A DNA stretch of 64,000 nucleotides, taken from assembly GCA_037200965.1 (NCBI GenBank), contig JBBCGK010000001.1:416001-480000 (forward strand), given 5' to 3'. Below, in pieces: positions 5,554 through 37,682 of the stretch (position 1 is the first letter of the stretch; the number at the start of each line of letters is the position of its first letter). The position numbers and the translations under genes were made by a program. The stretch comes from a bacterium (GTDB taxonomy: Bacteria; Patescibacteriota; Minisyncoccia; Phycocordibacterales; Phycocordibacteraceae). The notes under the pieces were generated by a model, which worked only from the letters and a program-made list of their open reading frames with translations, was not told where the DNA came from and ran no database searches.

Positions 5554-7545
5554 CTATGCCTCGCCCTTGAGTATTTTCTTCAGCGTCTCTTCAGGAACTT
5601 CGAAAGGCTGCACTCCTGGCGTTTTTTGCTGCGTTTGCGGTTCTTGCCGCGGTGCCGGAGCTTGGGGCACAACATCTGTCGCCGCGGAAGGCGCTACGGC
5701 TGGCTGCTTCGCGATAACGCTCGCGAGCGCGTCCTTGAGCGAACTTTGCTTCTCGGTCTCTTTCTGCTGTTTCTCCTTCCCGGCCGATGCGGTCATATTC
5801 TTGAGTATTGATTTAAGCTCCTCGGTGGTCTTTGCTTTCGGTACGGGCGGAACGCGTTCCCGGATCGGCGCGTTTATGGGCCGGTTTTGCTCTACGGAAG
5901 CGGGCTCGCCCATGGGAAGCTCTTCCCGGTGCGGGCGCGGCGGAAGCGCCTCTTCCTTTGGTCGTGGAGGGAGCGTACGCTCCGGAGAAAGGACAGGAGC
6001 GCGCATCAGGGTCCTTGCGGGAGAAGGCATGCGGGCCGGAACCGGGCGCTCGCTTGCCTCGCGCCGTGGCGCGGCAGGCACCGGGCGGGCCCCGGGCCCC
6101 GGCACTTCGCTTCCCTGGTTCGCAAGCGCCTTTTGCATGGCGACATTGCTTGGGGCTTTTCTCGGGGCCCCTGGCGGGCCGTACGAGGCCTTGCGCATGC
6201 GTGCGTCGACCGGCGCTTCGGAGGCGACGCTCGCCTCAAGCTCGGCGACTATGGCGCTTTCGATTCCTTCGCGCGGCGAGGTGAACTGCGCGCGGGAGGA
6301 GGCGATAACCTCGTTCCGGTACGAAACGGGCGGCGCTTCGATCGGCGGTATGGTTACGGCCGAAAACGGCGGCGAGCCGACGCCGTCGATCATGAGGGTC
6401 AGGTATATCTGCCGCTTGTCGAGACCGACGATGTCCTCCTTGAGGAAGGCGGGCGAAAAGACCGTTTCGAGTGTCTCGGCGTCGAAGGGACCGACGCGGA
6501 ACGCGACCGTCGTGCCCACGTTCCCGAATACGGCGTCCCGGACCTCTTCTTCCATCTGTTCGATGTACTGGTGCGCGATGACGAGGTTAAGTTTGTATTT
6601 TCGGGCTTCGGAAAGAATCTCGGCAAACGTCTCGTTCGCGAAGTTCTGGAATTCGTCGACATAGAAATAGAAGTGCGGGAGCCGGGCGAGGTCGGCGCCG
6701 TGGAGATTCGCGCGGCTCATGGCGCCGAGAAAGATGCGCGTCGTTAGCATGGAGCCCAGGAGCCGCATGTTGGTCTCGCCGACAAGCCCCTTCGAGAGGT
6801 TGATGATGAGTATCTTCCGGTTGTCCATCATCTCCCTGATGTCGAACGAGGACTTCGGCTGCCCGATAATGTTTCGAATGAGCGGGTTCCCGGTAAACTG
6901 GCCGATCTTGTTCTGGATCGCGGGCGTCGCCTCTTGCGTGTACTTGTCACCGTAGTTTGCGAATTCCTTGACCCAGAAATCCTTCACGACCGGATCTTTC
7001 ACGTTATCGACGACTTTGGTGCGATAAGCCCTGTCGGTGTACATGCGGTTCACCCCGAGAAGCGTCGCGTCCGGGTATTCAAGGAGCGCGAGGAGCGTGT
7101 TCGTGAGGATGTACTCCATGCGGGCGCTCCAGGCGTCCTCCCAAATCTTCTTGAAGGTCGCCATGAGACCCGAGACCACGAGGTGTCGCTTGTCGTACCC
7201 GACGTCTTCCATCACGTTGAAAGCGATCGGATTGTCCATGTCAAACGGCGCGAAGTAGACCACGTCCTTGATGCGCTCCTGCGGGACGTACTCCAGGAGC
7301 TTGTTGGCAGTCTCGCCGTGCGGGTCGATAAAGGTGAGACCTTCGCCGTTCCGAAGGTCCTGGATCGCCATGTTCTCAAGCAAGGTCGACTTGCCCATAC
7401 CCGTCTTCCCGATCACGTACATATGGCGGTCGCGGTCCTTCTGCTTGATGCCAAATGGCACTTTCTTCCCTCTCGAGTCGGTCGCCGCGAAATAGGTAAC
7501 GCGTTCCGGATTATCCATGCGCCTATTATACACTTTCCAACGCAA
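5554..7545 (-). CDS. TraD/VirD4/TrwB-like (type IV coupling protein family, FtsK/HerA superfamily) ATPase with a long Pro-rich C-terminal tail
   Basis: Walker A VIGKTGMGKSTLLEN followed by ...FIDPHGE (pattern of TrwB GTTGSGKS...VDPNGD); Walker B FYFYVDEFQNF. C-terminal roughly 260 aa is low-complexity and P/A/R/E-rich. Paralog at 59402..60715. Confidence 0.6.
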   Translation of the reverse strand: MRWKVYNRRMDNPERVTYFAATDSRGKKVPFGIKQKDRDRHMYVIGKTGMGKSTLLENMAIQDLRNGEGLTFIDPHGETANKLLEYVPQERIKDVVYFAPFDMDNPIAFNVMEDVGYDKRHLVVSGLMATFKKIWEDAWSARMEYILTNTLLALLEYPDATLLGVNRMYTDRAYRTKVVDNVKDPVVKDFWVKEFANYGDKYTQEATPAIQNKIGQFTGNPLIRNIIGQPKSSFDIREMMDNRKILIINLSKGLVGETNMRLLGSMLTTRIFLGAMSRANLHGADLARLPHFYFYVDEFQNFANETFAEILSEARKYKLNLVIAHQYIEQMEEEVRDAVFGNVGTTVAFRVGPFDAETLETVFSPAFLKEDIVGLDKRQIYLTLMIDGVGSPPFSAVTIPPIEAPPVSYRNEVIASSRAQFTSPREGIESAIVAELEASVASEAPVDARMRKASYGPPGAPRKAPSNVAMQKALANQGSEVPGPGARPVPAAPRREASERPVPARMPSPARTLMRAPVLSPERTLPPRPKEEALPPRPHREELPMGEPASVEQNRPINAPIRERVPPVPKAKTTEELKSILKNMTASAGKEKQQKETEKQSSLKDALASVIAKQPAVAPSAATDVVPQAPAPRQEPQTQQKTPGVQPFEVPEETLKKILKGEA

Positions 7546-8619: not shown

Positions 8620-9477
8620 TTAAGAACAAGTTGGCACAAGCGTGAGTGATTTCGTTAAGTAAATACGGGGCGAATTGAAGATTTCCGGCGAGGAAAATCT
8701 GAAGCAGAATTCCCTCACGTATTCCTCCAAGTTCTCGCTCCAGTGATGATGATACATCCTGCGCACGAAGGTGCGGTATACCCCGAACATTCCCTCGATC
8801 TCAGAGGTGTGCTCGAACTCGAATTTGGAGTGAATATCTCGCTGGTGCGACACCGGCCAGCGTTGGCTGATGTTCTTGTATATCGACCCGCCATCGGTCC
8901 AGAGCTCGCTTCCCGGCGCCACATGCTCGAACAGGAATGAGACGGCATCAGTCTTGGTTGGGTACCTGCCGTGGAATACCTCGAAGGCGAGCTTTCTCGT
9001 ACCTTTCTGCTTGGCCATGACGAGCGCGGCGTTTTTGAAGTACGCTTCGTCCATTTGGACGATACGTTCGAGCACATGGGTTTCCTGGGGCAAATGGAGC
9101 CTGAAGGTGGCATACCAACGCCTGACCGTGCGTTCCGGAAGGCCAGAGAGCGTGACGGCTTGGCGTACCGGCTCTTGTATGGTCCAGCACCAGAGCAGCA
9201 CCCACCACTGCTCGAGGGGGAGCTTCAGATTCGAGAGCCAGGTGTGCGAGGTGAGGGAGAAGCGGATGCGGCACGTGCGGCACCGATACCGCTCCTGTTG
9301 CTTTTCGATCCTTCGTGACCGGCACGAAGGACAGAACACGTTCTTGCCGAAGAGCGTACGGCGCAAGAACTTCCGAATCTGCGCTTCGCTCGGTATCTGT
9401 TTGAGAGTGTACATAGCTTCCATGGTATGGGAGCTGTGCCAACTGAGTCTGAATGCCCTGATCCGGGGACTTGACAA
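8620..9477 (-). CDS. IS1595-family (ISXO2-like) DDE transposase
   Basis: N-terminal zinc ribbon CPSCRS...YRCRTCR, then IVQMDEAYF...TDGGSIY...E, typical of DDE_Tnp_IS1595. Real start probably MEAMYTLKQ near 9423. Confidence 0.75.
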   Translation of the reverse strand: MSSPRIRAFRLSWHSSHTMEAMYTLKQIPSEAQIRKFLRRTLFGKNVFCPSCRSRRIEKQQERYRCRTCRIRFSLTSHTWLSNLKLPLEQWWVLLWCWTIQEPVRQAVTLSGLPERTVRRWYATFRLHLPQETHVLERIVQMDEAYFKNAALVMAKQKGTRKLAFEVFHGRYPTKTDAVSFLFEHVAPGSELWTDGGSIYKNISQRWPVSHQRDIHSKFEFEHTSEIEGMFGVYRTFVRRMYHHHWSENLEEYVREFCFRFSSPEIFNSPRIYLTKSLTLVPTCS

Positions 9478-9745: not shown

Positions 9746-11029
9746 CTAGGTCTTAGGTGCGGCGAGCATGTCCGCAATTTTATAAATATCTCCTGCGCCC
9801 ATGGTCATAAGGGAGTCGCCGGAGCCATACGTTTCGAGCACCTTCTCGATAGCGTCAAACGAAGGAAGCGCTGCGGCGTCGGTGCCTTCCGCACGGATAC
9901 GTTCGGCGAGTATGTCACTTGAAATGGTGCCGTCGTCCGTCTCACGCGCCGCATAGATGGGAGCTATAAGGACCTTGTCCGCGTCCTTGAAGGCGGTTGC
10001 GAAATCGTCGAGGAGGTCGCGGGTGCGGCTGTAAAGATGCGGGTGGAAGGCGACAACGACCCTGCCGTTCGTCTTTTCCCGAAGCGCCTTCAAGGTCTCG
10101 CGCACTTCGGTCGGGTGATGCGCGTAGTCATCGTATACGTCGGCCCCGCTCTTGGTTTTTCCTTTGTATTCGAAACGCCGCCAGGTGCCGTGGAAATGAG
10201 AGAGCGAAGTGGCGATGGAACTTTCAGCGATAGACGGAAGAACGGCGCGGGCGGCCCCGGCGGCAGCGCGGGCATTCATTTGATTGAAGCCTCCCGGAAG
10301 CCGCAGCTCATAGGCAGGCTCGAGCGTATAGTCGATAACGGGCGCCACGGCGTCGGCGAGCACCGCCGCGATATTCGCGTCGTGGGGGTTCGTGACGATA
10401 CAGCCGTCCTCGGGCACGTTCCGTATCGCCGTACGAAACGTTTCCTGAAGAGCTGCAAGCGACGGGAAATGATCGGTATGGTCCCATTCGAGGTTGGTGA
10501 CCACGAGCACCGAGGGGGAGAGCTCGAGCAGGTGATCCTTATATTCGCACGCCTCGACGACGAAAAGATCCGAATTACCGGAAAGATAGTTGGAGCCGAA
10601 ATCCTTGACGATAGAGCCGACGATGGCGGTCGGAGAAGCCCCGGCGTCGGCGAGAATCTTCGCAAGCATGCCGGTCGTGGTCGTCTTCCCGTGCGTTCCG
10701 GCGACCGCGATCGTCTTCTTTCCCCGCGACACTTCCCCGAGCATGGCGAAGTACGAGAGTTCGGGTATGCCAAGCTCCCGGGCGCGCATTCGTTCCGGAT
10801 TTTCCGGAGGCACCGCGTCGCTATAGATGAGCCTGTTCGTGAGAGCCTCTACGTTCTCCGCCTTTTGACCTATCACGACCCTGATCCCCTTCTTCTCCAA
10901 TAGCTCCGTCACCGGACCCGCCTCCCTGTCCGATCCGGTTATTTCATTTCCCTGCTCCTTGAGCATTTGCGCGAGCGCGCTCATCCCGATGCCGCCGATG
11001 CCGGTGAAATGGAGTTTTTGAGGGTTCAT
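9746..11029 (-). CDS. murC: UDP-N-acetylmuramate--L-alanine ligase
   Basis: MNPQKLHFTGIGGIGMSALAQMLKEQGNEITGSD... and the Mur-ligase P-loop GTHGKTTTTGM. Confidence 0.85.
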   Translation of the reverse strand: MNPQKLHFTGIGGIGMSALAQMLKEQGNEITGSDREAGPVTELLEKKGIRVVIGQKAENVEALTNRLIYSDAVPPENPERMRARELGIPELSYFAMLGEVSRGKKTIAVAGTHGKTTTTGMLAKILADAGASPTAIVGSIVKDFGSNYLSGNSDLFVVEACEYKDHLLELSPSVLVVTNLEWDHTDHFPSLAALQETFRTAIRNVPEDGCIVTNPHDANIAAVLADAVAPVIDYTLEPAYELRLPGGFNQMNARAAAGAARAVLPSIAESSIATSLSHFHGTWRRFEYKGKTKSGADVYDDYAHHPTEVRETLKALREKTNGRVVVAFHPHLYSRTRDLLDDFATAFKDADKVLIAPIYAARETDDGTISSDILAERIRAEGTDAAALPSFDAIEKVLETYGSGDSLMTMGAGDIYKIADMLAAPKT

Positions 11030-12099
11030 GCGCCTGTGCCAAGCACGATATCAGAAATATCCCGGCGAAGCTCGTTGATGGCATCCGGGCTCGAGCGCTT
11101 GGGATACGTCCTGTTGGAGAGAACGGCAAACGCTGTTTCCCGTTCCGGATCGACGACGCAGAGCGTTCCCGTGAACCCTGTTTTCCCGAATGTGCTCGGA
11201 CGCACGTGATTTCCCATGAACCTCGGCTCGTTGAGTTCCCATCCAAGGCCCATCGATACGCCAGGCAGGCTGAGCTGGTTGGTATGCATCTGCGCGACCG
11301 TCGCGGGCTCGAAGTATTTGATGCCGCTCAGCGAGCCTTCGTTCAGAAGCATCTCGAGGAAGATGAGGATGTCCGGTACGTTCGTAAAGAGGCCGGCGCA
11401 ACCCATGGGATGCTCTTTCTCCAGAACGAAGCTGGTCTCGTCGTGTACGAATCCCTGCACGAGCCCCCGCCATTCGTCTATCTCCGTCGGCGGAATGCTC
11501 TTCTGGTCGCGAGGAAAAAAGGTTGAGTTCGTCATGCCAAGCGGCTTGAAGAAGTATCCGTGTCCGACTTTATCGACCGTCGAACCTGTTATGTTTTCTA
11601 TGACCAGGCTAAGGAGGAGCGCCGGAAGATTCGAATATTTCGCCTGTTCGCCCGGCCGGGCCTTGAGATTCACGTGCGGAAGATTCTTTCCTATTTCTTG
11701 CGCAGTCGCCTTCGTGACGTCGAATCCGGGCGTCGGAAAATCTGGGATAATCGCGTATGTGAGCAGGTGCCGGATGAGCGTCTCGTGTGTGTAGTTATTT
11801 TTGTAAGTCGGCAGATGAGTGACAAGCTTGTCGTCGAGGGAAAGCTTCCCTTCTTCGATCAGTTTGAGCGCGATGGAGCTCGTCGGGATCGATTTGGTGA
11901 TGGAGGCGACATCATACGATGTATCCGCCATGACCCGGGGACTTTCCGGTTCGTAGGTGAAGCGGCCTTCCGCGAAAATCTCGCGCTTCCCGTCGCGCCC
12001 TACGATGCCGACGACGGCACCCGGGAAGACTCTTTCTTCGATAGCGCGTATAAGCCTGTTTCGGAGTGCTGATTCCATAGACGCTATCAACTCTAGCAT
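11026..12099 (-). CDS. serine hydrolase, beta-lactamase / penicillin-binding-protein-like family
   Basis: S-x-x-K active-site motif within SYDVASITKSIPTSSIALKLIEEGKLSLDDKL; 357 aa. Confidence 0.65.
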   Translation of the reverse strand: MLELIASMESALRNRLIRAIEERVFPGAVVGIVGRDGKREIFAEGRFTYEPESPRVMADTSYDVASITKSIPTSSIALKLIEEGKLSLDDKLVTHLPTYKNNYTHETLIRHLLTYAIIPDFPTPGFDVTKATAQEIGKNLPHVNLKARPGEQAKYSNLPALLLSLVIENITGSTVDKVGHGYFFKPLGMTNSTFFPRDQKSIPPTEIDEWRGLVQGFVHDETSFVLEKEHPMGCAGLFTNVPDILIFLEMLLNEGSLSGIKYFEPATVAQMHTNQLSLPGVSMGLGWELNEPRFMGNHVRPSTFGKTGFTGTLCVVDPERETAFAVLSNRTYPKRSSPDAINELRRDISDIVLGTGA

Positions 12100-12146
12100 T
12101 TTCGATGCATGGGTGCCTTTTCTCTGCCTCTGCTACACTGGCCCGT

Positions 12147-13067
12147 ATGGCCCGAATCTATGACAAGGCGTATTTCGGTTCAAAGGTGGTGCCCATTGAT
12201 GACGCAGCGCTCAACATCACTACCTCAGCTGTACTCTACGGGCTCAGCGTCTATACGGTATTCCCGGTATGCGTGACGCAAGACGGACTCGCAGCGTTTC
12301 GCCTGTCCGACCATTTCAAGCGCCTTATCGAGTCGGCGCGCATAGTTGGAATCGACACATTCGAACAGGAATGGACGTATGAGAAGTTCTTGGTGGCCGT
12401 GAAGGAGACTACGGCCGCAAACAGCATCCGCCAAGACGCATTCGTGCGCGCGAGTGTACATGTGAGTGAGCGCGTGCCGGGCACGCGCTCGAGAGGACTG
12501 GCGACGACCTTGAGCATGTTCGTCTATGAAGCACTCCCGATCATCCCGCAGGACGGGACGCGCCTCAAGACGAGCGTCTGGAGGCGCGTCCCCGACTATG
12601 CGATTCCTTCCCGCGCGAAGGTAAACGGGGCGTATGTGAACTCGGTGCTTGGAAAGCAGGACGCGCTCGACAGCGGGTACGACGACTGCATCTTCCTAGA
12701 CGCCGAAGGCCATGTCTGCGAATTGTCCGCGGCAAACATCTTCATCGTCCGCGACGGCATGCTTGTTACACCGCCGACCTCAGGCGATATTCTTGAGGGA
12801 ATAAACCGGCGCACCATACTCGAGCTTGCGAAGAACATGGAAATCCCCGCGGTTGAACGCACGATCGACCTTACCGAACTCTATGTGGCGGAGGAGGCAT
12901 TCGCCTGCGGTACCTCTTCCTTCATCGCTCCTATCGCCGAGATCGACAAGCGTCGTATCGGTTCGGGTGCGATAGGCCCGATTACGACACGGATACGGCA
13001 ACAACACACGGCCGCGCTTCACGGGAGCGATCCGGCTTACCACAAATGGCTTACGATTTTAAGCTAG
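12147..13067 (+). CDS. class IV (branched-chain / D-amino-acid) PLP aminotransferase
   Basis: Start placed at MARIYDKAYFGSKVVPIDDA... (the ATG at 12105 would nearly abut the divergent gene). ...EAFACGTSSFIAPIAEID... is typical of IlvE/Dat. Confidence 0.65.
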   Translation: MARIYDKAYFGSKVVPIDDAALNITTSAVLYGLSVYTVFPVCVTQDGLAAFRLSDHFKRLIESARIVGIDTFEQEWTYEKFLVAVKETTAANSIRQDAFVRASVHVSERVPGTRSRGLATTLSMFVYEALPIIPQDGTRLKTSVWRRVPDYAIPSRAKVNGAYVNSVLGKQDALDSGYDDCIFLDAEGHVCELSAANIFIVRDGMLVTPPTSGDILEGINRRTILELAKNMEIPAVERTIDLTELYVAEEAFACGTSSFIAPIAEIDKRRIGSGAIGPITTRIRQQHTAALHGSDPAYHKWLTILS

Positions 13068-14272
13068 TTTTCTGCAAGAGTTGAAATCCATTTCCTGTAC
13101 TGCGCACTCTTGTCCTTATAGTCCTTGAAGAGGTTGAAGCTCGGTGAGGCATTCGAAAGAAGAACGATCCCGCCAGGGCGCGTATGCGTATACGCGGCAC
13201 GCACCGCTTCTTCCATAGAAGATACGGGGATGATATTCCGCTCGCTCACTTCGGCCACCATCTTGGCACCCGTATCGGGAAATATGATAAAGGTTTGTAT
13301 CTTGGTCTTCCCCAATTCTTGAGCAAAAGCATCAAATGAAATGCCGCGATCTTCTCCGCCGAGGATGATGGTATCGACACCGGAAAGAGCGTGTACGGAA
13401 GCCATCGAGGCTTCCGGAATGGTGGCGAGAGAGTCGTCGTAAAATGTGATGCCGCGATACGTTCCGAGTCTCTCCAGTCGGTACGGGAGCGGAATAAATG
13501 TCTTGATATGTTCGCGGGCTTCGGCTTCCGAGATACCCAACGCCTGCACCGCCGCGACCGCAAGCGCACAATCCTTTTGATTATGCTCGCCGAGGAGTTT
13601 TGTCTCGAAGCTTTTGCTCATATCCGGCCGCACTACCTTTCCTGCAAACTGAATAGCAAGATCACTGCCGTTTATGAAAACATCTTCCGAACCTTGGAAA
13701 CGCGCGATATTGAGCTTCGCCTCCTTGTACTTTTCAAAAGAACCGTGATGGGATAAATGTTCCTGATAGAGATTCGTAAGGACGGCAACGTGTGGGGAGT
13801 GCGTCAGGTATTCGCACTGATAACTCGACAGCTCAAGGACATGAAGCTGACCCGGAATATCCGCGCTCAGGATATCTGCGTCGGCAATACCAATATTGCC
13901 CGAGAGCCGGACGGTACGGCCCGCTCCTTTGAGTATGTGGTAAATCAGCGAAGAGACGGTACTCTTTCCTTTCGTACCCGTGACCCCGATGGCCCGGTCG
14001 CGCACGCGTTCAAGCACCAAGTCGGTAAACGTGGTGACGCGCGTTTTCGAAGAAGCAAGCCGGAGCTTTCTCGTCGGTATGCCGGGAGTCTTGTAGACAA
14101 TCTCGATAATGTCCGGTATCGAGAGCCCGAGATGCACGGTCGCATCCAATCCCCCAGGGTCTATAGCCGCTTCGTCGAAAATATGGAGTTCGGCCTTTCC
14201 TTTGAAATATTCATAAGCGGCATGGCCTTCCAGACCGAAACCGGCAATCCCGATGATAGGCTGTGCGCTCAT
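13064..14272 (-). CDS. murD: UDP-N-acetylmuramoyl-L-alanine--glutamate ligase (MurD or MurD2-type)
   Basis: IGIAGFGLEGHAAYEYF...GVTGTKGKSTVSSLIYHIL; Mur ligase domain. Confidence 0.8.
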   Translation of the reverse strand: MSAQPIIGIAGFGLEGHAAYEYFKGKAELHIFDEAAIDPGGLDATVHLGLSIPDIIEIVYKTPGIPTRKLRLASSKTRVTTFTDLVLERVRDRAIGVTGTKGKSTVSSLIYHILKGAGRTVRLSGNIGIADADILSADIPGQLHVLELSSYQCEYLTHSPHVAVLTNLYQEHLSHHGSFEKYKEAKLNIARFQGSEDVFINGSDLAIQFAGKVVRPDMSKSFETKLLGEHNQKDCALAVAAVQALGISEAEAREHIKTFIPLPYRLERLGTYRGITFYDDSLATIPEASMASVHALSGVDTIILGGEDRGISFDAFAQELGKTKIQTFIIFPDTGAKMVAEVSERNIIPVSSMEEAVRAAYTHTRPGGIVLLSNASPSFNLFKDYKDKSAQYRKWISTLAEN

Positions 14273-15588
14273 GGCTGGTGATAGTCGGCGGGAATGCCGT
14301 GCTCCCCGGTCGTCTCAGAAAGCATGGGCAAATACGCACCTCCTTCCATAATCGGCAGAGCTGCCAACACCGCCGGGAGCGGCAATCCTGCGTCGCTATA
14401 CTGCTTCGCGGAAAGATAAAGCGCGAGAAGATTTTCCTTGAACGTACCCACACAATCAAATGGCTTCCCCTCGTGCATACCGATCAATTCCTCAAAGAGC
14501 GGAATGAGAGCCGCATCCTCAAAGAGATTCTTCCTGAAGATATTGAAAACGGTGTTTGGCGCAAGAAATGCGGATAACGCTCCGAACATGAAAGCGCATT
14601 TCGCGCATTCGCCACACCACGACCCGGTCTTAAGGCCCCGATTGCAAGAAACGAAATACGGAAAATATTGCGGATATTCGATGAATCTGCGGACCACCTG
14701 CAGCTCGTAGAGCGGCCGGATAAGGGAAAAGAGGCGGATGCCTGGATTCACATACTTCCGGACATACTCTGCCGCCATCTTCTCGAACTCATAGCTTTTC
14801 GAATACTGATGGTTAATATTCTGACCCAGATACTCGACATTACCTTCGCTCGCGCTCCGTTCAAGCGAGGGAATTATATCGGTGAAGCCGTTCGCCTGCG
14901 CGGCAAGCACGGCGCTCATCATGTATGTGGCGGTGATAGGCACGTGTCCGTTCGGCGCTCCCCGCTTCACAAGCTCCATGACGGGAGCGAAATTCTTCGC
15001 CACATCGCGCCTGACGCTCACACAATCGGTGACTCCGGACACTTCGCGCAGGCGCGGGCCAAAAGGGAGCGGTTCGAGCTCGAACCATGAAAATGCTTTC
15101 TCTTGCTTTTTTAGCAGTTCGCCAGTCACCAAGCTGTCCTTCCCTCCTCCGAAAGGCACCAGCGCGCGGCGCGGGCCATTCGGGATACTTTGAACCGGCA
15201 AAATATCGGGTGCCTGAGGGTCTCCAACCACGTGTACCAGCCCTCGAAAGTCGATCTTGTTGACATAAAAGAATTCCCCAAGACCCTGAGTATATAAATT
15301 CTCCCAAAATGCGATTTGTTCCGGCAAAAGCCGCCCCGCTTTTATAACAATTTCCGGAGCAAGGATTGCTTTCCAAAAGCCCGCAAGTTCCGCGAGACCG
15401 AGTGCAAACGCAGCTGGTCTTAATGTTTCGGGGTTTGTGCCGTCTGGGAATGTATACCCAAGTTCGTGGACGAAGCGGTGCCCGGCATCGGTCGTATAGG
15501 TATAGGCAACCTTCCCCCGTTCGATATCTATCGCAAACGCATCGAAATAGAATCTGTGCGCGAGCGGCGAAGGTTTCATCGCGTCCAT
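14269..15588 (-). CDS. PP-loop (SGGxDS-type) ATP-pyrophosphatase family protein with a C-terminal Cys cluster; candidate UDP-MurNAc-L-Ala-L-Glu epimerase (MurL-like)
   Basis: ALVPFGGGKDSLVTG at about residue 150; CNRGLKTGSWCGECAKCAF (a QueC-like Cys cluster). ATGA-type coupling with murD. The MurL assignment is an inference. Confidence 0.4.
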   Translation of the reverse strand: MDAMKPSPLAHRFYFDAFAIDIERGKVAYTYTTDAGHRFVHELGYTFPDGTNPETLRPAAFALGLAELAGFWKAILAPEIVIKAGRLLPEQIAFWENLYTQGLGEFFYVNKIDFRGLVHVVGDPQAPDILPVQSIPNGPRRALVPFGGGKDSLVTGELLKKQEKAFSWFELEPLPFGPRLREVSGVTDCVSVRRDVAKNFAPVMELVKRGAPNGHVPITATYMMSAVLAAQANGFTDIIPSLERSASEGNVEYLGQNINHQYSKSYEFEKMAAEYVRKYVNPGIRLFSLIRPLYELQVVRRFIEYPQYFPYFVSCNRGLKTGSWCGECAKCAFMFGALSAFLAPNTVFNIFRKNLFEDAALIPLFEELIGMHEGKPFDCVGTFKENLLALYLSAKQYSDAGLPLPAVLAALPIMEGGAYLPMLSETTGEHGIPADYHQP

Positions 15589-15633: not shown

Positions 15634-16182
15634 CTACTCGCACTCCCTGGTCGAAGTCGCGTCCTGGTGCGTCACCGGAAGCGGGCTTCTCGGCATGACG
15701 ATGATGCTATACGGGGTCGAGAGGGACTGCGTCACCATGCAGCCCTTGCCCGGGACGGTGAGGGTGACATAGACGGTACGCTCGGTCGCGCTGTCCTCGA
15801 CTTTCGTGACCGCGATGGCGTATCCCCCGGTTGGCTTTTGCCCGGCGAACACCCCAACGACCTCCTGCGAGGAAAGGTCGACCGCGGGCGTCGTCGAACT
15901 GGTACCGAACGCGAGTTTCCAGAGTTTCGCAATCCCCTCGGCATCGGTCGCGAGATAGTTCTTGCGGGTCGTAACGCCTCCGGCATGGGTGCCGGTGGTG
16001 AGTGTCGTGAAGTCCACGGGGCCTCCTATCTCCATCGCTTCGGTCGAGTTCGGCGTCGTAGTAGCCACCTGCTCGACGGCGGGCACGCCCATCATAAGCT
16101 CGTCAGGAGTGTAAAAATAAAGATAGGCACCGATGATGCCGGACGCGATGATCATCCCGACGATGATAAGAAGGTCTTTCAT
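15634..16182 (-). CDS. membrane-anchored hypothetical protein
   Basis: Start at MKDLLIIVGMIIASGIIGAYLYF (TM anchor); Thr-rich linker; C-terminal beta-rich domain. Confidence 0.5.
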   Translation of the reverse strand: MKDLLIIVGMIIASGIIGAYLYFYTPDELMMGVPAVEQVATTTPNSTEAMEIGGPVDFTTLTTGTHAGGVTTRKNYLATDAEGIAKLWKLAFGTSSTTPAVDLSSQEVVGVFAGQKPTGGYAIAVTKVEDSATERTVYVTLTVPGKGCMVTQSLSTPYSIIVMPRSPLPVTHQDATSTRECE

Positions 16183-16237
16183 AGGTCTAGTATACCTTCT
16201 GTGCGGGCCCCGGGGGCGTTCTCCACAGGGAATTTTG

Positions 16238-16310
16238 TGCACGCTCTAGGATTCGAACCTAGGACCGCTCGAGTATCAGTCGAGTGCTCTACCAACTGAG
16301 CTAAGCGTGC
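16238..16310 (-). tRNA. tRNA-Ile (anticodon GAT)
   Basis: The reverse complement folds as a cloverleaf: GCACGCT-TA-GCTCAGTTGGTAGAGC-A-CTCGA-CTGATAC-TCGAG-CGGTC-CTAGGTTCGAATCCTAG-AGCGTGC-A. No encoded CCA. Confidence 0.8.
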
Positions 16311-16564
16311 AGTTTCGTGATAGTACCAAAATCCGCCTGTTATTTCCACTTTCCCCACCCCCTCCCTTTCCCCCGAACCTTGCCTGTTATAGTGAGCCTA
16401 TAGATGGTCCACCGTGGCAACACGCGCGAACCGAAATTCCTCCGGTCGAGGAGGACTTCTACTCCCGAGTCGAAACTGCGCCGGCATCGCAACAAGGAGC
16501 GCATCTGGCAAAGATGCGTAAAGCGCCTCAAGGTCGCGGAAGTGCCTGCGGCTGCATAGGCCAA

Positions 16565-16598
16565 AAAGAAAGACCCGGATCACCCGGGTTCTTTCTTT
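16565..16598. terminator. long near-perfect palindrome (terminator or RNase III processing stem) between the 16S 3' end and tRNA-Ile
   Basis: AAAGAAAGACCCGG-atcac-CCGGGTTCTTTCTTT, T-rich on both flanks. Confidence 0.35.
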
Positions 16599-16929
16599 AT
16601 TCAGTGCATCGAAAACCTGTAGTCGCGTTCTCTTTTGTTCCGCCTATCCTGCTCCCGCTCAAAGGCTCACGTGTGGCCTTCAAGCGACCGCCGGGTTACG
16701 TTATCCGGCTTCCGTAGCGCGTTTGGGGACGACGCTAATCTCCCACTGTCCTTGCAGACAATATCGACATGATATGCCTTTCGGGCGATATCGGTTCCAA
16801 TTGGATATGTTCCACGAGCAGCTTCCGCTACCCGTGCCTTGTTTCGACTTACTCCCTGTCATTGAGTTTGCCGTAGTCCTGCATACGCAGAATTTCGGGC
16901 ACCCCCAACTCCCTTGAGTTGACGGGCGA

Positions 16930-17820
16930 ATGTGATACTTAGGCAAGTTCACGTTCCCACGCAGCGAGCGGATTTCCCGCACTGCGCGAGCCCCCGGCGT
17001 GCATTTTCGATTTCAACACAGCGATCTTCCTAACCCCTTCTTTCGTGTGATGGGCTTTCGCAATCGCGAGCTCGAGGACTTGGTAAAATAGCTCAAAGTC
17101 CTTTACGCGCTTGCTTTCAAGCGGGTGCCTTTTGAAAAAAGGCACCACGACTTGCTTCAAGAGATCGTAGCTGAAGATCTCGAACCGATAATTATCCCGT
17201 TGATTCTTCCGATATTCGCGTTGGAAGTATATCTTTCCGCATCCCCAGAATTTCTGTACTTTCTCAAGAAGAGGAAGTTCGTCTTCCCGCATCTTGATGT
17301 AGTAACGGCACTGCACCCGGTAACTTACCGAGCCATGCTCTTTCTTAGGTGGAAGCAGATAGACACAGAAACTCCCTTCGCCATCGGTCAAACCGACGAT
17401 GTAATCAGCGGATAGCACGCCTGGTTTTGTCCTTCTCGCGTTCTTCTTGTGGAAGAGCGCAATACTACGACGCAGCTGACTCCCAGTGTCTTTTGATTCC
17501 TGCATACCGACATAGTATCAATGAGTTGACACTACGGGTATTCAAGAACCGTTGCCGTTGTGGACAACTGGGTCTCCCCGGGTTACGCATACTTCTATTC
17601 CATACATCCTCTACGGGCCTTTCTTCGGCACCTTCCCTATCCTCACCGCCCACTGATAGGTCGATGCGGCCCTTTTTGTGTACAGGCTGTGTTTTGCTTC
17701 CAGATCCTTCAGTCCATACCTTACGGCATTGGACCTATCTTTCGGCTACGCTCCCCACGACGAGTGAGGAGGAGTGGATTTGAACCACTTAGAACTATGC
17801 GCTGCCGGGCGCATTTATTT
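16930..17820 (-). mobile_element. 16S rRNA intron (about 890 nt) at roughly E. coli position 1400 (between CTTGTACTCAC and CGCCCGTCA)
   Basis: The 16S exon sequence breaks at about 17821 and resumes at about 16929. The ORF inside is a LAGLIDADG endonuclease. Confidence 0.7.
16939..17505 (-). CDS. LAGLIDADG homing endonuclease (single-motif type), intron-encoded
   Basis: Motif IVGLTDGEGSFCVYL; 188 aa; lies inside a 16S intron. Confidence 0.7.
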   Translation of the reverse strand: MQESKDTGSQLRRSIALFHKKNARRTKPGVLSADYIVGLTDGEGSFCVYLLPPKKEHGSVSYRVQCRYYIKMREDELPLLEKVQKFWGCGKIYFQREYRKNQRDNYRFEIFSYDLLKQVVVPFFKRHPLESKRVKDFELFYQVLELAIAKAHHTKEGVRKIAVLKSKMHAGGSRSAGNPLAAWERELA

Positions 17821-18395
17821 GTGAGTACAAGACTCGAGAACGTATTCACCGTAGTATGGCTGACCTACGATTACTAGTGATTCCGGCTTCATGAGGTCGG
17901 TTGCAGACCTCAATCCGTACTGGGGGCGGTTTTCGGGATTAGCTCCACCTTGCGGTCTTGCATCCTTCTGTACCGCCCATTGTAACACGTGTGCAGCCCA
18001 GGGTATCAAGGGACATGCTGATCTGGCGTCATCCCCACCTTCCTCTCCCGTGAGGGAGCAGTCTCGCCTGACATATATAACAGGCAACGGGGGTTGCGTT
18101 CGTTACCCCACTGAAGGGAACAGTTCAAACCACGAACTGACGACGACCATGCATCACCTGTCCAGCACCCTCGAAGGCTCCGTCCCTTTCGGGTCGGATG
18201 CAGCTGGATTTCTAACCCTGGTAAGGTTCTTCGCTTGCCGACGAATTAAGCCACATGTTCCACCACTTGTGCGAGTCCCCGTCTATTCCTTTGAGTTTTA
18301 AGCTTGCGCTCGTACTACCCAGGCGGCTCGCTTATCGCGTTAGCTTAGCCCCACAGAGGGTCGATACTCCGTAGAGCGAGCGAGCAACGTTTAGG

Positions 18396-18427
<32 letters not shown>

Positions 18428-18685
18428 ATCCCCTGGCTTTCGTGTGTGAGCGTCAGGAACGTACCAGTCTATTGCCTTCGCCTTTGGTGTTCCCCATGAT
18501 ATCAACGGATTTCACCCCTACACCATGAGTTCCATAGACCTCTTACGCCCTCGAGCCGTACCGTTTCCCGTGCGGACCGGAAGTTGAGCTCCCGGATTTT
18601 ACGCGAGACTAATACGGCCGCCTTGACACCCTTTACGCCCAGTGATTCCGGATAATGCTCGGGGCCTCTGTATTACCGCTCCTGC

Positions 18686-19628
18686 TGGCCATCGTGTGTG
18701 GCATGCCGCACGGGCATGCCGCTCATATCGCTATGAGGATCGGACTATATCATCACCCACCAATACTGATGGGGCTCGGCGTGTAGTCTCTGAGGGGTCA
18801 AAGTATATATTCCGATGATCAGAAGGAAGCTTGTACCTGAAACAGGGCAGGATGTAAGGGGCGACGGTTCTTGTAAACGCGTCGCGTCCTTCTTTCCCGA
18901 TATACAGTTTCGGATACCGCTTCCCGCGGCACAGCGACAAATAGGTTTTTGCCGCGATGCCGAATCTCTCTAATAACAGCGCTTGCAGTCGCTTCACCTC
19001 CGATTCCGTGAAAGAATCAGTACTGATGTGGTACGCATAATGGGATTTTGCTCGATAATCGAGCCTCCCATCATCCATGAACCACACCGCGAGCGTGAGC
19101 GGCGACCGGAACAATTCGGTGATATTTCCAGGAACGACCTTCTCGCGTCCCGCGTAGAAGATTTTGCGCATGTCTTCGAGGTTCTCGAAGAAACGCGTTC
19201 CGAAATACCACTGTTTCGTATCCGGTCTTTGCTTCGGAGGAGTTTTGACGAGATGCGCGAAGTGACTATAAAGCCACACTACATACTCCTTTCGTTCCTC
19301 CGATTGCTTTACCTGCAATCGGGTGCCTCGATAGCCGTTAAACTCGAGATTTCCATCTCCGAGCATGAGGCCTACGAGCACATCCCGTTGTTGCTTCGAG
19401 AGCGCACAGATCATCTTCACAATTATACTCGACTTCCCTGCTGATTGTCTCTTGGGATCTGATTTTGATTTCAAAGAAATCTAAACCAGACGCAGTCCAC
19501 AAGAGAGTTCCAGCATATAGCCAAGTTTTCGATCTCGATTTCTCGAGAAAGCTGCACGCGGTAACGAACGGTTCGTGAGAACCGTTCGATTTGCTCCAAT
19601 GCGCAGAGCCACCTGCGCACGTGTACAG
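18686..19628 (-). mobile_element. 16S rRNA intron (about 940 nt) just 5' of the 515 region
   Basis: The exon stops after ...AACTCTGTAC near 19629 and resumes at GGCCAGCAGGAGCGG near 18685. Confidence 0.7.
18731..19474 (-). CDS. LAGLIDADG homing endonuclease (two-motif monomeric type), intron-encoded
   Basis: Motifs LVGLMLGDGNL and LAVWFMDDGRL; 247 aa. Confidence 0.7.
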   Translation of the reverse strand: MKSKSDPKRQSAGKSSIIVKMICALSKQQRDVLVGLMLGDGNLEFNGYRGTRLQVKQSEERKEYVVWLYSHFAHLVKTPPKQRPDTKQWYFGTRFFENLEDMRKIFYAGREKVVPGNITELFRSPLTLAVWFMDDGRLDYRAKSHYAYHISTDSFTESEVKRLQALLLERFGIAAKTYLSLCRGKRYPKLYIGKEGRDAFTRTVAPYILPCFRYKLPSDHRNIYFDPSETTRRAPSVLVGDDIVRSS

Positions 19629-20209
19629 AGTTAGGAGCCCCTTATTCCCCGGGTACCGTCAATTACTTCGTCCCCGGGAAAAGCTGTTTACGTACCTAAG
19701 CACTTCGTCCAGCACGCGGCGTCGCTCCGTCAGGCTTGCGCCCATTGCGGAATATTCTCGTCTGCGGCCTCCCGTAGGAGTATGGGCCGTATCTCAGTCC
19801 CATCGGTGGGGGTCAGCCTCTCAGCTCCCCTAAACGTCGTAGCCTTGGTGAGCCATTACCTCACCAACTAGCTGATATTACGCAGGTGACTCCCGGAGCA
19901 ATAAATCTTTACTCTCGCGAGACCATCGGGAATTACCCAACCTTTCGGCTGGCTATGCCCGACTCCGGGGGATCTCCCTGCGCGTTACTACCTCGTTCGC
20001 CACTGCCCTTGCGGGCCGTTCGACTTGCATGACTTATCCACGCCGCCAGCATTCATCCTGAGCTAGGATCAAACTCTCATTAAGAATAGGCGGAACAAAA
20101 CAAAACATAACTTACAGGTTTTCTTGCACCCCCAAGACCGTGCCGGTCCTGGGGACTTTATTCGTATGTCAGAGAGCAAATAAAACCGGCCCCCTGTGGG
20201 GCAGGTAAA

Positions 20210-32375: not shown

Positions 32376-32760
32376 ATCTCTAGTATAAACGAATGCAGCC
32401 AACTCAACGAGTCGGCCGCAAACTCACCTTATGATCTCTTATCGTCTGAAAAGCACGCGGTCGACCGAAGCTTGGAATCGGCGTTTGCAGAAAGCGCATC
32501 CGCTTCCCGCGAACATATGTTCGTAGATAGCAGCAAGCGATGCATGCGGGTCCGCCGACGCTCCTAAACAGGTAGCGTAGGTGCCCACAAAAGGAACTTC
32601 CCATTCATCAATTGCCGCGATGTGCGGATATTTGTTCGCTAACGCCAAAACTTCTGCCGATTCTTGTCCCGAAGTTCTCATGGGCCTTACTCCTTCTCTC
32701 CTTTACCGGGAACTCGTAAATACGGTGCAAGGTTACGAAAACACGCCCGCAGTGCTGGCG

Positions 32761-37642: not shown

Positions 37643-37682
<40 letters not shown>

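What the first reader, a model, noticed from the sequence alone, without database searches (positions are those of the whole stretch)
13064..15588. murD translationally coupled to a PP-loop ATPase: candidate MurD2/MurL L-Glu-then-epimerise route, next to a class IV aminotransferase
The gene upstream of murD (4-bp overlap) encodes a 439-aa protein with an SGGxDS-type PP-loop (FGGGKDS) and a QueC-like Cys cluster (CNRGLKTGSWCGECAKC). This fits an ATP-dependent adenylating enzyme. The alternative D-Glu pathway, as I recall it (MurD2 adds L-Glu and the ATP-dependent epimerase MurL then converts it to D-Glu), has adjacent murD2-murL genes. Divergent from murC lies a class IV aminotransferase (possibly a D-amino-acid transaminase) and a PBP-like serine hydrolase. 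The organism may therefore lack glutamate racemase and use a non-canonical D-Glu supply.
Basis: partly seen in the sequence, partly recalled or inferred. Interest (0 to 1): 0.55.

Follow-up and report, generated by a model that had tools for sequence, protein, structure and literature searches.

The report
MurL/MurD2 alternative D-glutamate cell-wall route

Summary
A 439-aa ORF (14269..15588, -) overlaps a 402-aa Mur ligase ORF (13064..14272, -) by ATGA, and both quoted motifs are present.

The 439-aa protein is a MurL homologue:
- It hits Pfam MurL_N + MurL_epimerase_C (precomputed) and NCBIfam NF041275 at E 2.6e-73. That score is below the Xanthomonadales-specific cut-off.
- It is 33% identical to Xanthomonas sacchari MurL and keeps every family-invariant residue.
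- It folds (pLDDT 96.8) as a QueC-like PP-loop ATPase.

The ligase is MurD2-type, not canonical MurD:
- It carries the residues shown by mutagenesis to set L-Glu specificity (E171, R309, P377, F379). It also lacks the Lys equivalent to E. coli K319 (L282).
- It scores 417 bits against a MurL-linked-ligase HMM and 241 against a canonical MurD HMM.
- It falls on the MurL-linked side of a 98%-bootstrap split.

The murL-murD2 pair is adjacent in 71 of 75 assessable genomes and is fused into one protein, in both orders, in many others.

The neighbouring aminotransferase is BCAT-like, not a D-amino-acid transaminase. Absence of murI could be checked only within the window.

Verdict: a correct call and a new member of a known system. 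It is unannotated in GenBank, and its breadth in CPR is under-reported.

The parts
14269..15588 (-). [quoted passage not shown] It has a MurL_N domain (about residues 1-125) followed by a QueC-like PP-loop ATPase core and a C-terminal helical region.
15133..15150 (-). PP-loop variant GGGKDS (residues 147-152), the predicted ATP pyrophosphatase / adenylation motif.
   Evidence: G148 and G149 are invariant and K150, D151 and S152 are at least 90% conserved across 90 homologues. The motif aligns to FSGGQDS of E. coli QueC by hhalign.
14596..14646 (-). Four-Cys cluster C315-x9-C325-x2-C328-x2-C331, a QueC-type putative Zn site.
   Evidence: C315, C325 and C328 are invariant and C331 is at least 90% conserved. 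All four Cys align to the Cys cluster of E. coli QueC.
14443..14466 (-). KPFDCVGT motif (residues 375-382) with invariant C379, specific to the MurL family. C379 is a candidate acid/base residue for epimerisation (inference).
   Evidence: P376, C379 and G381 are invariant in 90 sequences. The motif is conserved as KPFECVG in X. sacchari MurL. It was one of the two patterns that retrieved 594 genomic relatives.
14269..14272 (-). ATGA overlap of the murL stop and the murD2 start (translational coupling).
   Evidence: Sequence read. Overlaps of the same kind occur in 36 of 71 related loci, after removing the 7 fusions from the 43 negative gaps.
13064..14272 (-). [quoted passage not shown]
   Evidence: Mur_ligase_M and Mur_ligase_C domains. 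Catalytic residues K103, N126, E147, H172, K186, T284 and S378 are conserved. 417 bits against the MurL-linked ligase HMM versus 241 against the canonical MurD HMM, and an NJ split with 98/100 bootstrap.
13742..13765 (-). QEHLSHHG: E171 lies at the position of E. coli MurD D182 (Xoo MurD2 E197), next to the catalytic His.
   Evidence: The residue mapping comes from PMC8788868. Thirteen canonical MurDs have D or A here and never E.
13412..13438 (-). DDSLATIPE: L282 replaces the Lys of the canonical DSK-x-TN motif (E. coli K319), and P286 follows.
   Evidence: K in 13/13 canonical MurDs, against I, L or another non-Lys residue in 67/67 MurL-linked ligases plus X. sacchari MurD2. The K319T change lets E. 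coli MurD accept L-Glu.
13343..13360 (-). GGEDRG: R309 lies at the position of E. coli K348 (Xoo MurD2 R358).
   Evidence: R in 65/67 MurL-linked ligases.
13136..13156 (-). SNASPSF: P377 and F379 lie at the positions of E. coli A414 and L416 (Xoo MurD2 P433 and F435).
   Evidence: The direct pairwise alignment to X. sacchari MurD2 gives SPGAPSF.
9746..11029 (-). murC (UDP-MurNAc:L-Ala ligase), the step that makes the MurD2 substrate.
   Evidence: TIGR01082 408.8 bits, above the 335.1 cut-off.
12105..13067 (+). Class IV (BCAT-like) aminotransferase, a conserved neighbour in this clade. Its role is unproven and it is not a typical D-amino-acid transaminase.
   Evidence: A 74%-identical orthologue lies directly downstream of murD2 in GCA_023269035.1.

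Best explanation
The two overlapping genes encode the alternative 'L-Glu first, epimerise afterwards' branch of peptidoglycan precursor synthesis, first described in Xanthomonas oryzae.

Proposed sequence of events:
1. MurC (9746..11029) makes UDP-MurNAc-L-Ala.
2. [quoted passage not shown]
3. The 439-aa MurL homologue binds ATP at its PP-loop (GGGKDS) and adenylates the alpha-carboxylate of the terminal L-Glu, releasing AMP at the end.
4. This acidifies the C-alpha proton, so the residue is inverted.
5. [quoted passage not shown]

The ATGA overlap, and outright fusion in many relatives, keeps the two activities stoichiometric.

Shown here: family membership, specificity-residue signature, fold, synteny and fusion. 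Taken from the literature for the Xanthomonas, Micromonospora and Salinispora enzymes: the actual chemistry (ATP -> AMP, unidirectional L -> D). Inferred: that the window's enzymes do the same, and that C379 and the invariant His/Glu residues serve as acid/base groups.
For: MurL side:
- NCBIfam's only hit is NF041275 MurL, E 2.6e-73, covering residues 11-394.
- Precomputed Pfam gives MurL_N + MurL_epimerase_C.
- 33% identity, E 3e-55, to PGAP-annotated MurL of X. sacchari, with every family motif conserved.
- Invariant residues across 90 homologues are all present.
- The AF2 model has pLDDT 96.8. Its closest solved folds are QueC and the QueC-like Cap9 and QatC, followed by other PP-loop ATP pyrophosphatases.
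- hhalign aligns the PP-loop and all four Cys to E. coli QueC. QueC also adenylates a carboxylate (background knowledge), which fits the AMP-forming chemistry reported for MurL.

Ligase side:
- At the positions that PMC8788868 reports as controlling stereospecificity (E. coli D182/K348/A414/L416 -> Xoo MurD2 E197/R358/P433/F435; the E197D/R358K double mutant switches L to D), the window protein has E171/R309/P377/F379.
- It has L282 where E. coli has K319; the K319T change admits L-Glu.
- Thirteen diverse canonical MurDs have D/A, K, K/R, A/S at these positions, whereas 67 MurL-adjacent ligases and X. sacchari MurD2 share the window's pattern.
- HMM scores are 417 (MurL-linked) versus 241 bits (canonical). 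An NJ bipartition separates canonical from MurL-linked ligases at 98/100 bootstrap.

Linkage:
- A MurD-like gene lies directly downstream on the same strand in 71 of 80 related loci. Five of the nine exceptions are contig ends.
- X. sacchari has the same order, with a 20-bp overlap.
- Natural fusions exist in both orders, MurL-MurD and MurD-MurL.

Context: murC, FtsW/RodA and PG-binding proteins are in the window, so the organism makes peptidoglycan.
Against: - No biochemical data exist for this clade.
- The window MurL is among the most divergent family members sampled: 247 bits on NF041275 against 396-412 for some other CPR members, and far below the 700-bit equivalog cut-off.
- Overall identity of the ligase to Xanthomonas MurD2 (28%) is barely higher than to E. 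coli MurD (26%). The MurD2 call therefore rests on signature residues, the HMM scores and the tree.
- The ligase passes the TIGR01087 'murD' cut-off. However, the bona fide Xanthomonas-type MurD2 passes it too, so that model does not discriminate.
- Absence of murI or dat from the genome was not established.
- Lone MurL-like genes without a MurD neighbour exist on Pseudonocardia plasmids, so the family may not be mono-functional.
Confidence: 0.85

Rival explanations
1. The ligase is an ordinary D-Glu-adding MurD. The upstream PP-loop protein is an unrelated QueC/TilS/TtcA-type nucleoside- or tRNA-modifying enzyme that merely happens to overlap it.
For: The ligase passes TIGR01087 murD (250 bits, above 211.95). 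The PP-loop protein's nearest solved folds are QueC, TilS and TtuA. JGI labels some homologues '7-cyano-7-deazaguanine synthase'.
Against: - There is no NCBIfam hit to QueC, TilS or TtcA; the only hit is MurL. TilS appears in the PDB search only at E 0.061 over 50 residues.
- QueC similarity is at superfamily level: hhalign gives 76% probability and covers only residues 140-343.
- TIGR01087 also accepts the Xanthomonas-type MurD2.
- The canonical MurD residues D182, K319, N322 and A414 are all replaced.
- Adjacency holds in 71/75 assessable loci across many phyla, and fusions exist in both orders. Chance adjacency cannot explain this.
Confidence: 0.03
2. The MurL-like enzyme of this divergent CPR clade still adenylates the Glu alpha-carboxylate of the muropeptide precursor but does something other than epimerise it. 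One possibility is amidation to isoglutamine, by analogy with QueC, NAD synthetase or MurT/GatD. Another is transfer to a different nucleophile.
For: PP-loop enzymes closest in fold (QueC, Cap9, QatC, NAD synthetase, nitrile synthetase ArtA) couple adenylation to amide formation. The window clade is divergent from the characterised enzymes, at 33% identity and 247 bits. Lone MurL-like genes exist outside a MurD context.
Against: - All residues invariant across the family, including the MurL-specific KPF[DE]CVGT motif and the NHQ-SK motif, are retained.
- No glutaminase or ammonia-donor partner is encoded next to it.
- The partner ligase has the L-Glu signature. That only makes sense if the L-centre is subsequently inverted, because downstream MurE and the transpeptidases use D-iGlu (established pathway knowledge).
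Confidence: 0.06
3. The pair is functional but redundant. The organism also makes free D-Glu, through MurI elsewhere in the genome or through the adjacent class IV aminotransferase acting as a D-amino-acid transaminase, so the MurL route is not its sole D-Glu supply.
For: - The genome outside the window was not examined.
- At least one CPR bacterium is reported to have an active MurI. This rests only on the title of Penalver et al. 2024, seen in a reference list.
- A class IV aminotransferase is conserved next to murD2 in two species of this clade. Its first active-site motif (V-Y-T-V) departs from BCAT's F-E-G-I-R.
Against: - No Asp_Glu_race domain occurs in any called gene of the window.
- The aminotransferase scores as BCAT (248.8 bits), far above the D-amino-acid transaminase models at 91.6-115 bits against cut-offs of 277-320.
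- It aligns full-length to solved BCATs but only in its C-terminal half to Bacillus DAAT.
- It keeps the BCAT F/Y-x-R carboxylate site.
- A MurD2-type ligase would not use free D-Glu efficiently.
Confidence: 0.12

Closest known systems
MurD2 (XOO_1320) / MurL (XOO_1319) of Xanthomonas oryzae, with the assayed orthologues of Micromonospora sp. and Salinispora tropica (Feng et al. 2017; reviewed in PMC8788868 and PMC5808125). The EC numbers, from memory, are 6.3.2.53 and 5.1.1.23.
   Same: - Same two protein families and the same gene order murL -> murD2 with overlapping ends (X. sacchari locus).
- Same ligase specificity residues E/R/P/F and loss of the K319-equivalent Lys.
- Same MurL motifs: GGGKDS, NGH-P, S-E-S, NHQ-SK, the 4-Cys cluster and KPF[DE]CVG.
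   Different: - Only 33% (MurL) and 28% (MurD2) identity to the Xanthomonas proteins.
- Below the NF041275 equivalog cut-off (247 versus 700 bits).
- The ligase is compact: 402 aa against 478 aa.
- The host is a CPR/Patescibacteria MAG, outside the taxa listed in the reviews (some Gamma- and Alphaproteobacteria and rare actinobacteria).
- No biochemical data.
[quoted passage not shown] E. coli MurD (PDB 1UAG/2UAG family)
   Same: Three-domain Mur ligase with all ATP/Mg and catalytic residues conserved, including K115, N138, E157, H183 and the carbamylated K198 equivalents. It passes TIGR01087.
   Different: D182->E, K319->L, N322->I, V323->P, K348->R, A414->P, L416->F. It scores 241 bits on the canonical HMM against 417 on the MurL-linked HMM and sits across a 98% bootstrap split.
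QueC (7-cyano-7-deazaguanine synthase) and the QueC-like proteins Cap9 and QatC of anti-phage systems
   Different: - No QueC family hit in Pfam or NCBIfam.
- MurL has an extra N-terminal domain (MurL_N) and a C-terminal helical region carrying the invariant KPF[DE]CVGT motif.
- The PP-loop starts with Gly rather than Ser.
- The substrate is a UDP-muramyl dipeptide and the outcome is epimerisation, not amide or nitrile formation.
MurI glutamate racemase and Dat D-amino-acid transaminase (the two classical D-Glu sources)
   Same: They serve the same physiological purpose, namely getting D-Glu into position 2 of the stem peptide.
   Different: They are unrelated folds that act on free amino acid, without ATP and reversibly. 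None is encoded in the window. The neighbouring class IV enzyme is BCAT-like.

Membership tests
[quoted passage not shown] | Matches the curated Pfam family models MurL_N (PF26299) and MurL_epimerase_C (PF26298) | tested here: met
   Precomputed hits without a weak/faint mark (E<=1e-5) are listed for this exact protein. The local Pfam copy returned no hit at all for this protein, apparently because it lacks these two models.
[quoted passage not shown] | Reaches the NCBIfam equivalog NF041275 (MurL_Xanthmoales) cut-off of 700 bits | tested here: not met
   247 bits, E 2.6e-73, near full-length. None of ten other homologues reaches 700 either (229-412 bits), and that includes some that their sources name MurL. 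The cut-off is lineage-specific.
[quoted passage not shown] | Family-invariant motifs: GGGKDS PP-loop, NGH-P, S-E-S, NHQ-SK, C-x9-C-x2-C-x2-C, KPF[DE]CVGT | tested here: met
   All are present in the window protein. They are invariant or >=90% conserved in 90 homologues and are shared with annotated X. sacchari MurL.
[quoted passage not shown] | Encoded immediately next to, or fused with, a MurD2-type ligase | tested here: met
   ATGA overlap in the window. 71/80 related loci have the ligase directly downstream. Xanthomonas has the same arrangement. Fusions exist in both orders.
[quoted passage not shown] | ATP- and Mg-dependent, AMP-forming, unidirectional L->D epimerisation of the terminal Glu | not testable with these tools
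   Reported for the Xanthomonas enzyme. Only the ATP-pyrophosphatase fold and motif could be verified here.
MurL/MurD2 pathway | Genome lacks murI and dat (the criterion used when the pathway was discovered) | tested here: inconclusive
   No Asp_Glu_race protein was found, and no class IV enzyme reaches a D-amino-acid transaminase cut-off, among the genes of the 64-kb window. The remaining ~900 kb of the contig could not be read.
[quoted passage not shown] | Specificity residues Glu and Arg at the positions of E. coli D182 and K348 (the E197D/R358K double mutant converts Xoo MurD2 to a D-Glu ligase), plus Pro and Phe at A414 and L416 | tested here: met
   E171, R309, P377 and F379, confirmed in pairwise alignment with X. 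sacchari MurD2. Residue definitions come from PMC8788868.
[quoted passage not shown] | Loss of the DSK-x-TN lysine (E. coli K319), whose mutation admits L-Glu | tested here: met
   L282. The position is K in 13/13 canonical MurDs and never K in 67 MurL-linked ligases or X. sacchari MurD2.
[quoted passage not shown] | Groups with MurL-linked ligases rather than canonical MurD | tested here: met
   417 versus 241 bits, with the window excluded from the HMM. The NJ bipartition has 98/100 bootstrap. Caveats: distance tree only, with 13 canonical controls.
[quoted passage not shown] | Preference for L-Glu over D-Glu in vitro | not testable with these tools
Canonical MurD (TIGR01087) | Score above the equivalog cut-off AND the canonical D-Glu pocket residues (D/A182, K319, N322, A/S414) | tested here: not met
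   The score passes (250.3 above 211.95). However, the model also accepts X. sacchari MurD2 (298 bits), and all four pocket positions differ.
QueC / TilS / TtcA PP-loop nucleoside-modifying enzymes | Significant match to the family models | tested here: not met
   No Pfam or NCBIfam hit to these families. TilS appears only at E 0.061 in the PDB search. QueC is related only at profile/fold level over the core.
D-amino-acid transaminase (for the neighbouring class IV enzyme) | Reaches the TIGR01121 / NF005209 cut-offs and aligns full-length to solved DAATs | tested here: not met
   91.6 bits against 277 and 115 against 320. Bacillus DAAT aligns only to residues 178-301.
Branched-chain aminotransferase (for the neighbouring class IV enzyme) | Reaches the NF005146 / TIGR01122 cut-offs and has the F-E-G-x-R and Y-x-R active-site motifs | tested here: inconclusive
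   248.8 bits against 279 and 224.4 against 245.55. It aligns full-length to BCAT structures. F-V-R is kept, but F-E-G-I-R is replaced by Y-T-V-F-P.

The most novel reading that the evidence does not exclude
The L-Glu-then-epimerise route is described in reviews as confined to 'relatively few bacterial genera'. On this reading it is instead a major, perhaps the predominant, way of installing D-Glu in CPR/Patescibacteria, and it is also common in Bacteroidota, Acidobacteriota, Rokubacteria and other MAG lineages. It often takes the form of a single bifunctional MurL-MurD2 (or MurD2-MurL) polypeptide.

This would mean three things:
- Many 'MurD' annotations in these phyla are wrong.
- A murI gap in a small genome need not imply dependence on host-derived D-Glu.
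- MurD2/MurL inhibitors would not be narrow-spectrum.

A further speculative layer is that the atypical BCAT-like aminotransferase conserved next to murD2 in this clade supplies or balances the L-Glu pool for the pathway.
Probability: 0.45. Interest if true: 0.55.

Novelty: new member of a known kind. Interest (0 to 1): 0.4.

Why it matters
This assigns a function to two genes that GenBank currently calls 'hypothetical protein' and 'Mur ligase family protein'. It explains how this reduced-genome bacterium can put D-glutamate into its wall without free D-Glu.

More broadly, the evidence collected here conflicts with the published picture of a pathway limited to a few genera:
- 2524 sequence clusters match.
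- 51 of the best 80 loci are labelled CPR.
- Fusion proteins are frequent.

This matters in three ways. Metabolic reconstructions of CPR bacteria score the wrong genes when they look for 'murI/MurD'. The TIGR01087 model cannot separate MurD2 from MurD, so annotation is affected. The proposal that MurD2/MurL is a narrow-spectrum antibiotic target is weakened.

The high-confidence model and the QueC relationship also give a concrete structural hypothesis for MurL. No MurL relative was found among solved PDB chains, and the reviews I read (2018, 2021) call its mechanism unclear.

Tried and rejected
1. The local Pfam scan of the PP-loop protein gave no hit. The local copy appears to lack the MurL models, so the absence means nothing.
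2. Overall pairwise identity cannot separate MurD2 from MurD (28% versus 26%). I used signature residues, competing HMMs and a tree instead.
3. TIGR01087 was rejected as evidence for D-Glu specificity, because it also accepts a Xanthomonas MurD2.
4. A promoter/terminator scan of 9.5-16.5 kb found nothing above the shuffled expectation.
5. I tested whether the aminotransferase and the PF00144 hydrolase form a transferred two-gene module shared with Nocardia farcinica. The aminotransferases are 59.6% identical, but the hydrolases are not orthologous (25% over 149 aa), so this was dropped.
6. tblastn of murC, the hydrolase, the aminotransferase and PrcB against the 80 distant loci found essentially no conserved neighbours beyond murD2.
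7. A genome-wide murI check was not possible.
8. The paper on MurI activity in Ca. Saccharimonas aalborgensis is not held in the library.

Full report
**Observation.** The window carries, on the minus strand, a 439-aa ORF (14269..15588) and a 402-aa ORF (13064..14272). The junction sequence ...CAG CCA TGA / ATG AGC... shows a 4-bp ATGA stop/start overlap. Both proteins exist verbatim in GenBank as MEJ0053572.1 'hypothetical protein WDN10_02485' and MEJ0053571.1 'Mur ligase family protein'. They lie on a 960,259-bp contig of assembly GCA_037975565.1, and the window corresponds to record positions ~895.6-959.6 kb.

**Organism.** It is a CPR/Patescibacteria-type bacterium.
- Its rRNA genes are interrupted by LAGLIDADG ORFs and a group I intron, and the 16S and 23S genes are unlinked.
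- The closest named homologues are from Minisyncoccia, Paceibacterota and the 'Patescibacteria group'.

**Local gene order.** murC <- PF00144 serine hydrolase (both minus) | class IV aminotransferase (plus) -> <- murD-like <- murL-like <- PrcB-domain protein <- tRNA-Ile <- 16S rRNA.

**The PP-loop protein is a MurL homologue.**
- The score (247 bits) is far below that model's 700-bit cut-off. None of ten other homologues reaches the cut-off either (229-412 bits). Two of these (P0080, P0117) are named MurL by JGI, and one (P0103, a Blastocatellia MAG) is named MurL in its NCBI record. The cut-off therefore looks lineage-specific.
- The precomputed Pfam annotation of this exact protein is MurL_N (PF26299) + MurL_epimerase_C (PF26298). 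The local Pfam copy gave no hit at all for this protein.
- A lucky hit in the plasmid collection gave a Xanthomonas reference. It is a 508-kb X. sacchari record with PGAP-annotated murL followed by 'murD', overlapping by 20 bp.
- The window protein is 33% identical (E 3e-55) to that MurL. The alignment conserves GGGKDS, NGH-P, S-E-S, NHQ-SK, the four Cys and KPF[DE]CVG.
- Across 90 homologues these same positions are invariant or at least 90% conserved.

**Fold.**
- An AlphaFold2 model built on the 90-sequence alignment is very confident (pLDDT 96.8, pTM 0.94).
- Foldseek against the PDB ranks QueC (2pg3, 3bl5) and the QueC-like QatC and Cap9 first.
- A profile comparison with E. coli QueC aligns residues 140-343 (E 2.2e-5). 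It places GGGKDS on QueC's SGGQDS and all four Cys on QueC's Cys cluster.
- No MurL relative was found among solved PDB chains. By sequence the PDB offers only TilS, at E 0.061.
The similarity is at superfamily level, not membership of QueC, TilS or TtcA.
- PP-loop enzymes of this type adenylate their substrate and release AMP (background knowledge). That matches the published finding that Xanthomonas MurL consumes one ATP, forms AMP and works only in the L->D direction.

**The ligase is MurD2-type.** The review PMC8788868 reports two results:
- E. coli MurD D182, K348, A414 and L416 are replaced in X. oryzae MurD2 by E197, R358, P433 and F435. The E197D/R358K double mutation converts MurD2 into a D-Glu ligase.
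- K319T lets E. coli MurD accept L-Glu.

Aligned to E. coli MurD, the window protein has E171, R309, P377 and F379, with L282 at the K319 position. All catalytic residues are intact.

As controls I collected 13 canonical MurDs from six phyla. They comprise E. coli plus 12 taken from chromosomes mislabelled as plasmids. They show D or A at position 182, K at 319 (13/13), N at 322 (13/13), K or R at 348 and A or S at 414.

By contrast, 67 ligases found next to MurL homologues, plus X. sacchari MurD2, show:
- E at 182 (53/67);
- I, L or another non-Lys residue at 319 (67/67);
- P at 323 (63/67);
- R at 348 (65/67);
- P at 414 (42/67).

Three solved D-Glu ligases read from PDB alignments agree with the canonical pattern.

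An HMM of MurL-linked ligases, built without the window sequence, scores the window protein at 417 bits. A canonical-MurD HMM gives 241. E. coli MurD behaves the opposite way, at 271 versus 553. A neighbour-joining tree separates canonical from MurL-linked ligases with 98/100 bootstrap.

Overall identity is uninformative (28% to Xanthomonas MurD2, 26% to E. coli MurD). TIGR01087 'murD' accepts both kinds.

**Linkage.**
- In the best 80 loci, a MurD-like gene lies directly downstream on the same strand in 71. Five of the nine exceptions end at a contig edge.
- Of the 71, 43 have a negative gap. Seven of these are single fused ORFs, so 36 are true overlaps, many of 4 bp.
- Three of the fused ORFs were confirmed to contain both a MurL and a MurD part.
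- In an exhaustive search of 1.84 billion cluster representatives, 2524 clusters match (1108 at E<=1e-30). Twenty-two of the top 150 are 799-983 aa long.
- Of five long or intermediate-length representatives tested, three complete proteins are MurL-MurD, one is MurD-MurL, and a 686-aa protein is MurL followed by a partial MurD. Fusions in both orders are classic evidence for a shared pathway.
- Close relatives of the window organism show murL-murD2-murC, murL-murD2 alone, or murL-murD2-aminotransferase-EamA-murC.

**Mechanism (best explanation, confidence about 0.85).**
1. MurC makes UDP-MurNAc-L-Ala.
2. MurD2 adds L-Glu.
3. [quoted passage not shown]
4. MurE and MurF continue from there.

The family assignments, signature, fold and linkage are shown here. 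The chemistry is taken from the Xanthomonas, Micromonospora and Salinispora work. The proposal that invariant C379 (KPFDCVGT), H215, H260 and E243 act as acid/base groups is my inference.

**Rivals.**
- *Ordinary MurD plus an unrelated tRNA/queuosine enzyme.* This is contradicted by every test above.
- *Adenylation followed by amidation rather than epimerisation in this divergent clade.* It cannot be excluded without an assay. It is disfavoured because all MurL-specific invariant residues are retained, no ammonia-donor partner is present, and the partner ligase has the L-Glu signature.
- *The pair is redundant with MurI or Dat elsewhere in the genome.* This remains open.

The class IV aminotransferase (12105..13067; the GenBank start gives 306 aa) is not a typical D-amino-acid transaminase.
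- The BCAT models score 224-249 bits, just under their cut-offs. The Dat models score 92-115 against cut-offs of 277-320.
- Solved BCATs align full-length (best 5ce8, E 3.9e-54), whereas Bacillus DAAT aligns only to the C-terminal half.
- It is atypical, though. The BCAT F-E-G-I-R motif is Y-T-V-F-P, while the F/Y-x-R site is kept.
- A 74%-identical orthologue sits co-directionally right after murD2 in another species, so some functional tie to the cluster is possible. It is unproven.
- No Asp_Glu_race protein is encoded anywhere in the window. The other ~900 kb of the contig could not be examined, so 'lacks murI' is not established.

**Comparison with what is known, and novelty.** The pathway, both enzyme families and their curated models already exist, so this is a new member of a known kind.

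What appears under-reported is the distribution. The reviews list Xanthomonadales, a few Alphaproteobacteria and rare actinobacteria, and call the distribution limited. Full-text searches for MurL or MurD2 together with Patescibacteria/CPR found nothing relevant. Yet 51 of the 80 best loci here are labelled CPR lineages: Paceibacteria, Saccharibacteria, Peribacteria/Peregrinibacteria, Gracilibacteria and many Microgenomates and Parcubacteria groups. Others are labelled Bacteroidota, Acidobacteriota, Rokubacteria, Methylomirabilia and Bacillota.

Three caveats apply. MAG labels can be wrong. The top 80 are ranked relative to a CPR query and so favour CPR. The searchable literature is incomplete.

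**Scores.** Interest is 0.40. The call is correct and useful for annotation and CPR physiology, but the system is known.

Noticed in passing
window 12105..13067 (+); L105:9490-10410; L102:5007-5921: The class IV aminotransferase is an atypical BCAT-like enzyme: Y-T-V-F-P replaces the F-E-G-I-R motif, and it is sub-threshold for every NCBIfam equivalog. A 74%-identical orthologue lies inside a murL-murD2-AT-EamA-murC-rsmI string in GCA_023269035.1. It is also 59.6% identical to a Nocardia farcinica chromosomal gene, against about 30% for ordinary IlvE. That suggests a distinct subfamily or horizontal transfer. Substrate unknown.
   Followed up: partly
L010:5935-8604, L027:5983-8547, L061:5839-8529 (also L018, L022, L053, L077); proteins P0121, P0140, P0207, P0264: Natural single-polypeptide fusions of MurL and the MurD2-type ligase, 799-983 aa, occur in both orders (MurL-MurD and MurD-MurL). 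They make up 22 of the 150 best cluster representatives.
   Followed up: yes
L088:6001-7401 (Pseudonocardia alni plasmid pPaSha1) and two other Pseudonocardia plasmids: Lone MurL-like genes (28-30% identity) sit on actinobacterial plasmids with no Mur ligase neighbour, next to a WD40 protein, an HTH protein and ParA. The family may therefore include members with a different substrate.
   Followed up: no
L087:6115-7551 (X. sacchari) and window 13064..14272: The NCBIfam equivalog TIGR01087 'murD' scores MurD2-type ligases above its cut-off (298 and 250 bits against 211.95). PGAP therefore names the Xanthomonas MurD2 a 'D-glutamate ligase', which looks like a systematic mis-annotation. The motif DS[IL]xTxP versus DSKxTN would separate the two.
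   Followed up: partly
window 16238..20084 (-) and 32753..38226 (-): The 16S rRNA gene matches the Rfam model in two pieces (17773..18828 and 19562..20084) and is interrupted by LAGLIDADG ORFs (16939..17505, 18731..19474). The 23S gene (33882..38226) carries a group I intron (34304..34520) and a LAGLIDADG ORF (35178..35717), with another at 33314..33769. About 14 kb of protein-coding genes lie between the 5S gene (32753..32860) and the 16S gene, so the 23S-5S pair and the 16S gene are unlinked. tRNA-Ile follows the 16S gene and is itself followed directly by the PrcB-murL-murD2 genes.
   Followed up: no
window 13064..13067: murD2 (minus) and the aminotransferase (plus) converge. Their stop codons are superimposed on the palindrome CTAG, which leaves no room for a terminator, so the transcripts must overlap.
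   Followed up: no
window 11026..12099 (-): A PF00144 (beta-lactamase/PBP4B-like) serine hydrolase overlaps murC by 4 bp. Its best solved relatives are a Pbp-related beta-lactamase (2qmi), Flp, carboxylesterases and an alkaline D-peptidase (E 1e-12 to 2e-17). It may be a D-stereospecific peptidase or LMW-PBP tied to wall metabolism.
   Followed up: partly
window 8620..9477 (-); ~25.5-26.1 kb; 5554..7545 (-) and 59402..60715 (+); 60851..61855 (+): Several other features were seen. An IS1595-family transposase sits next to murC. There is a RelB/YafQ toxin-antitoxin pair. Two VirD4/TraG/TrwB-like coupling ATPases are present. A RimK / D-Ala-D-Ala-ligase-like ATP-grasp protein lies near the contig end.
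   Followed up: no
window 15634..16242 (-): A PrcB_C-domain protein lies directly upstream of murL (45-bp gap). PrcB is a subunit of the Treponema dentilisin protease complex. The longest ORF overlaps tRNA-Ile by 5 nt, and GenBank uses a later start (182 aa).
   Followed up: no
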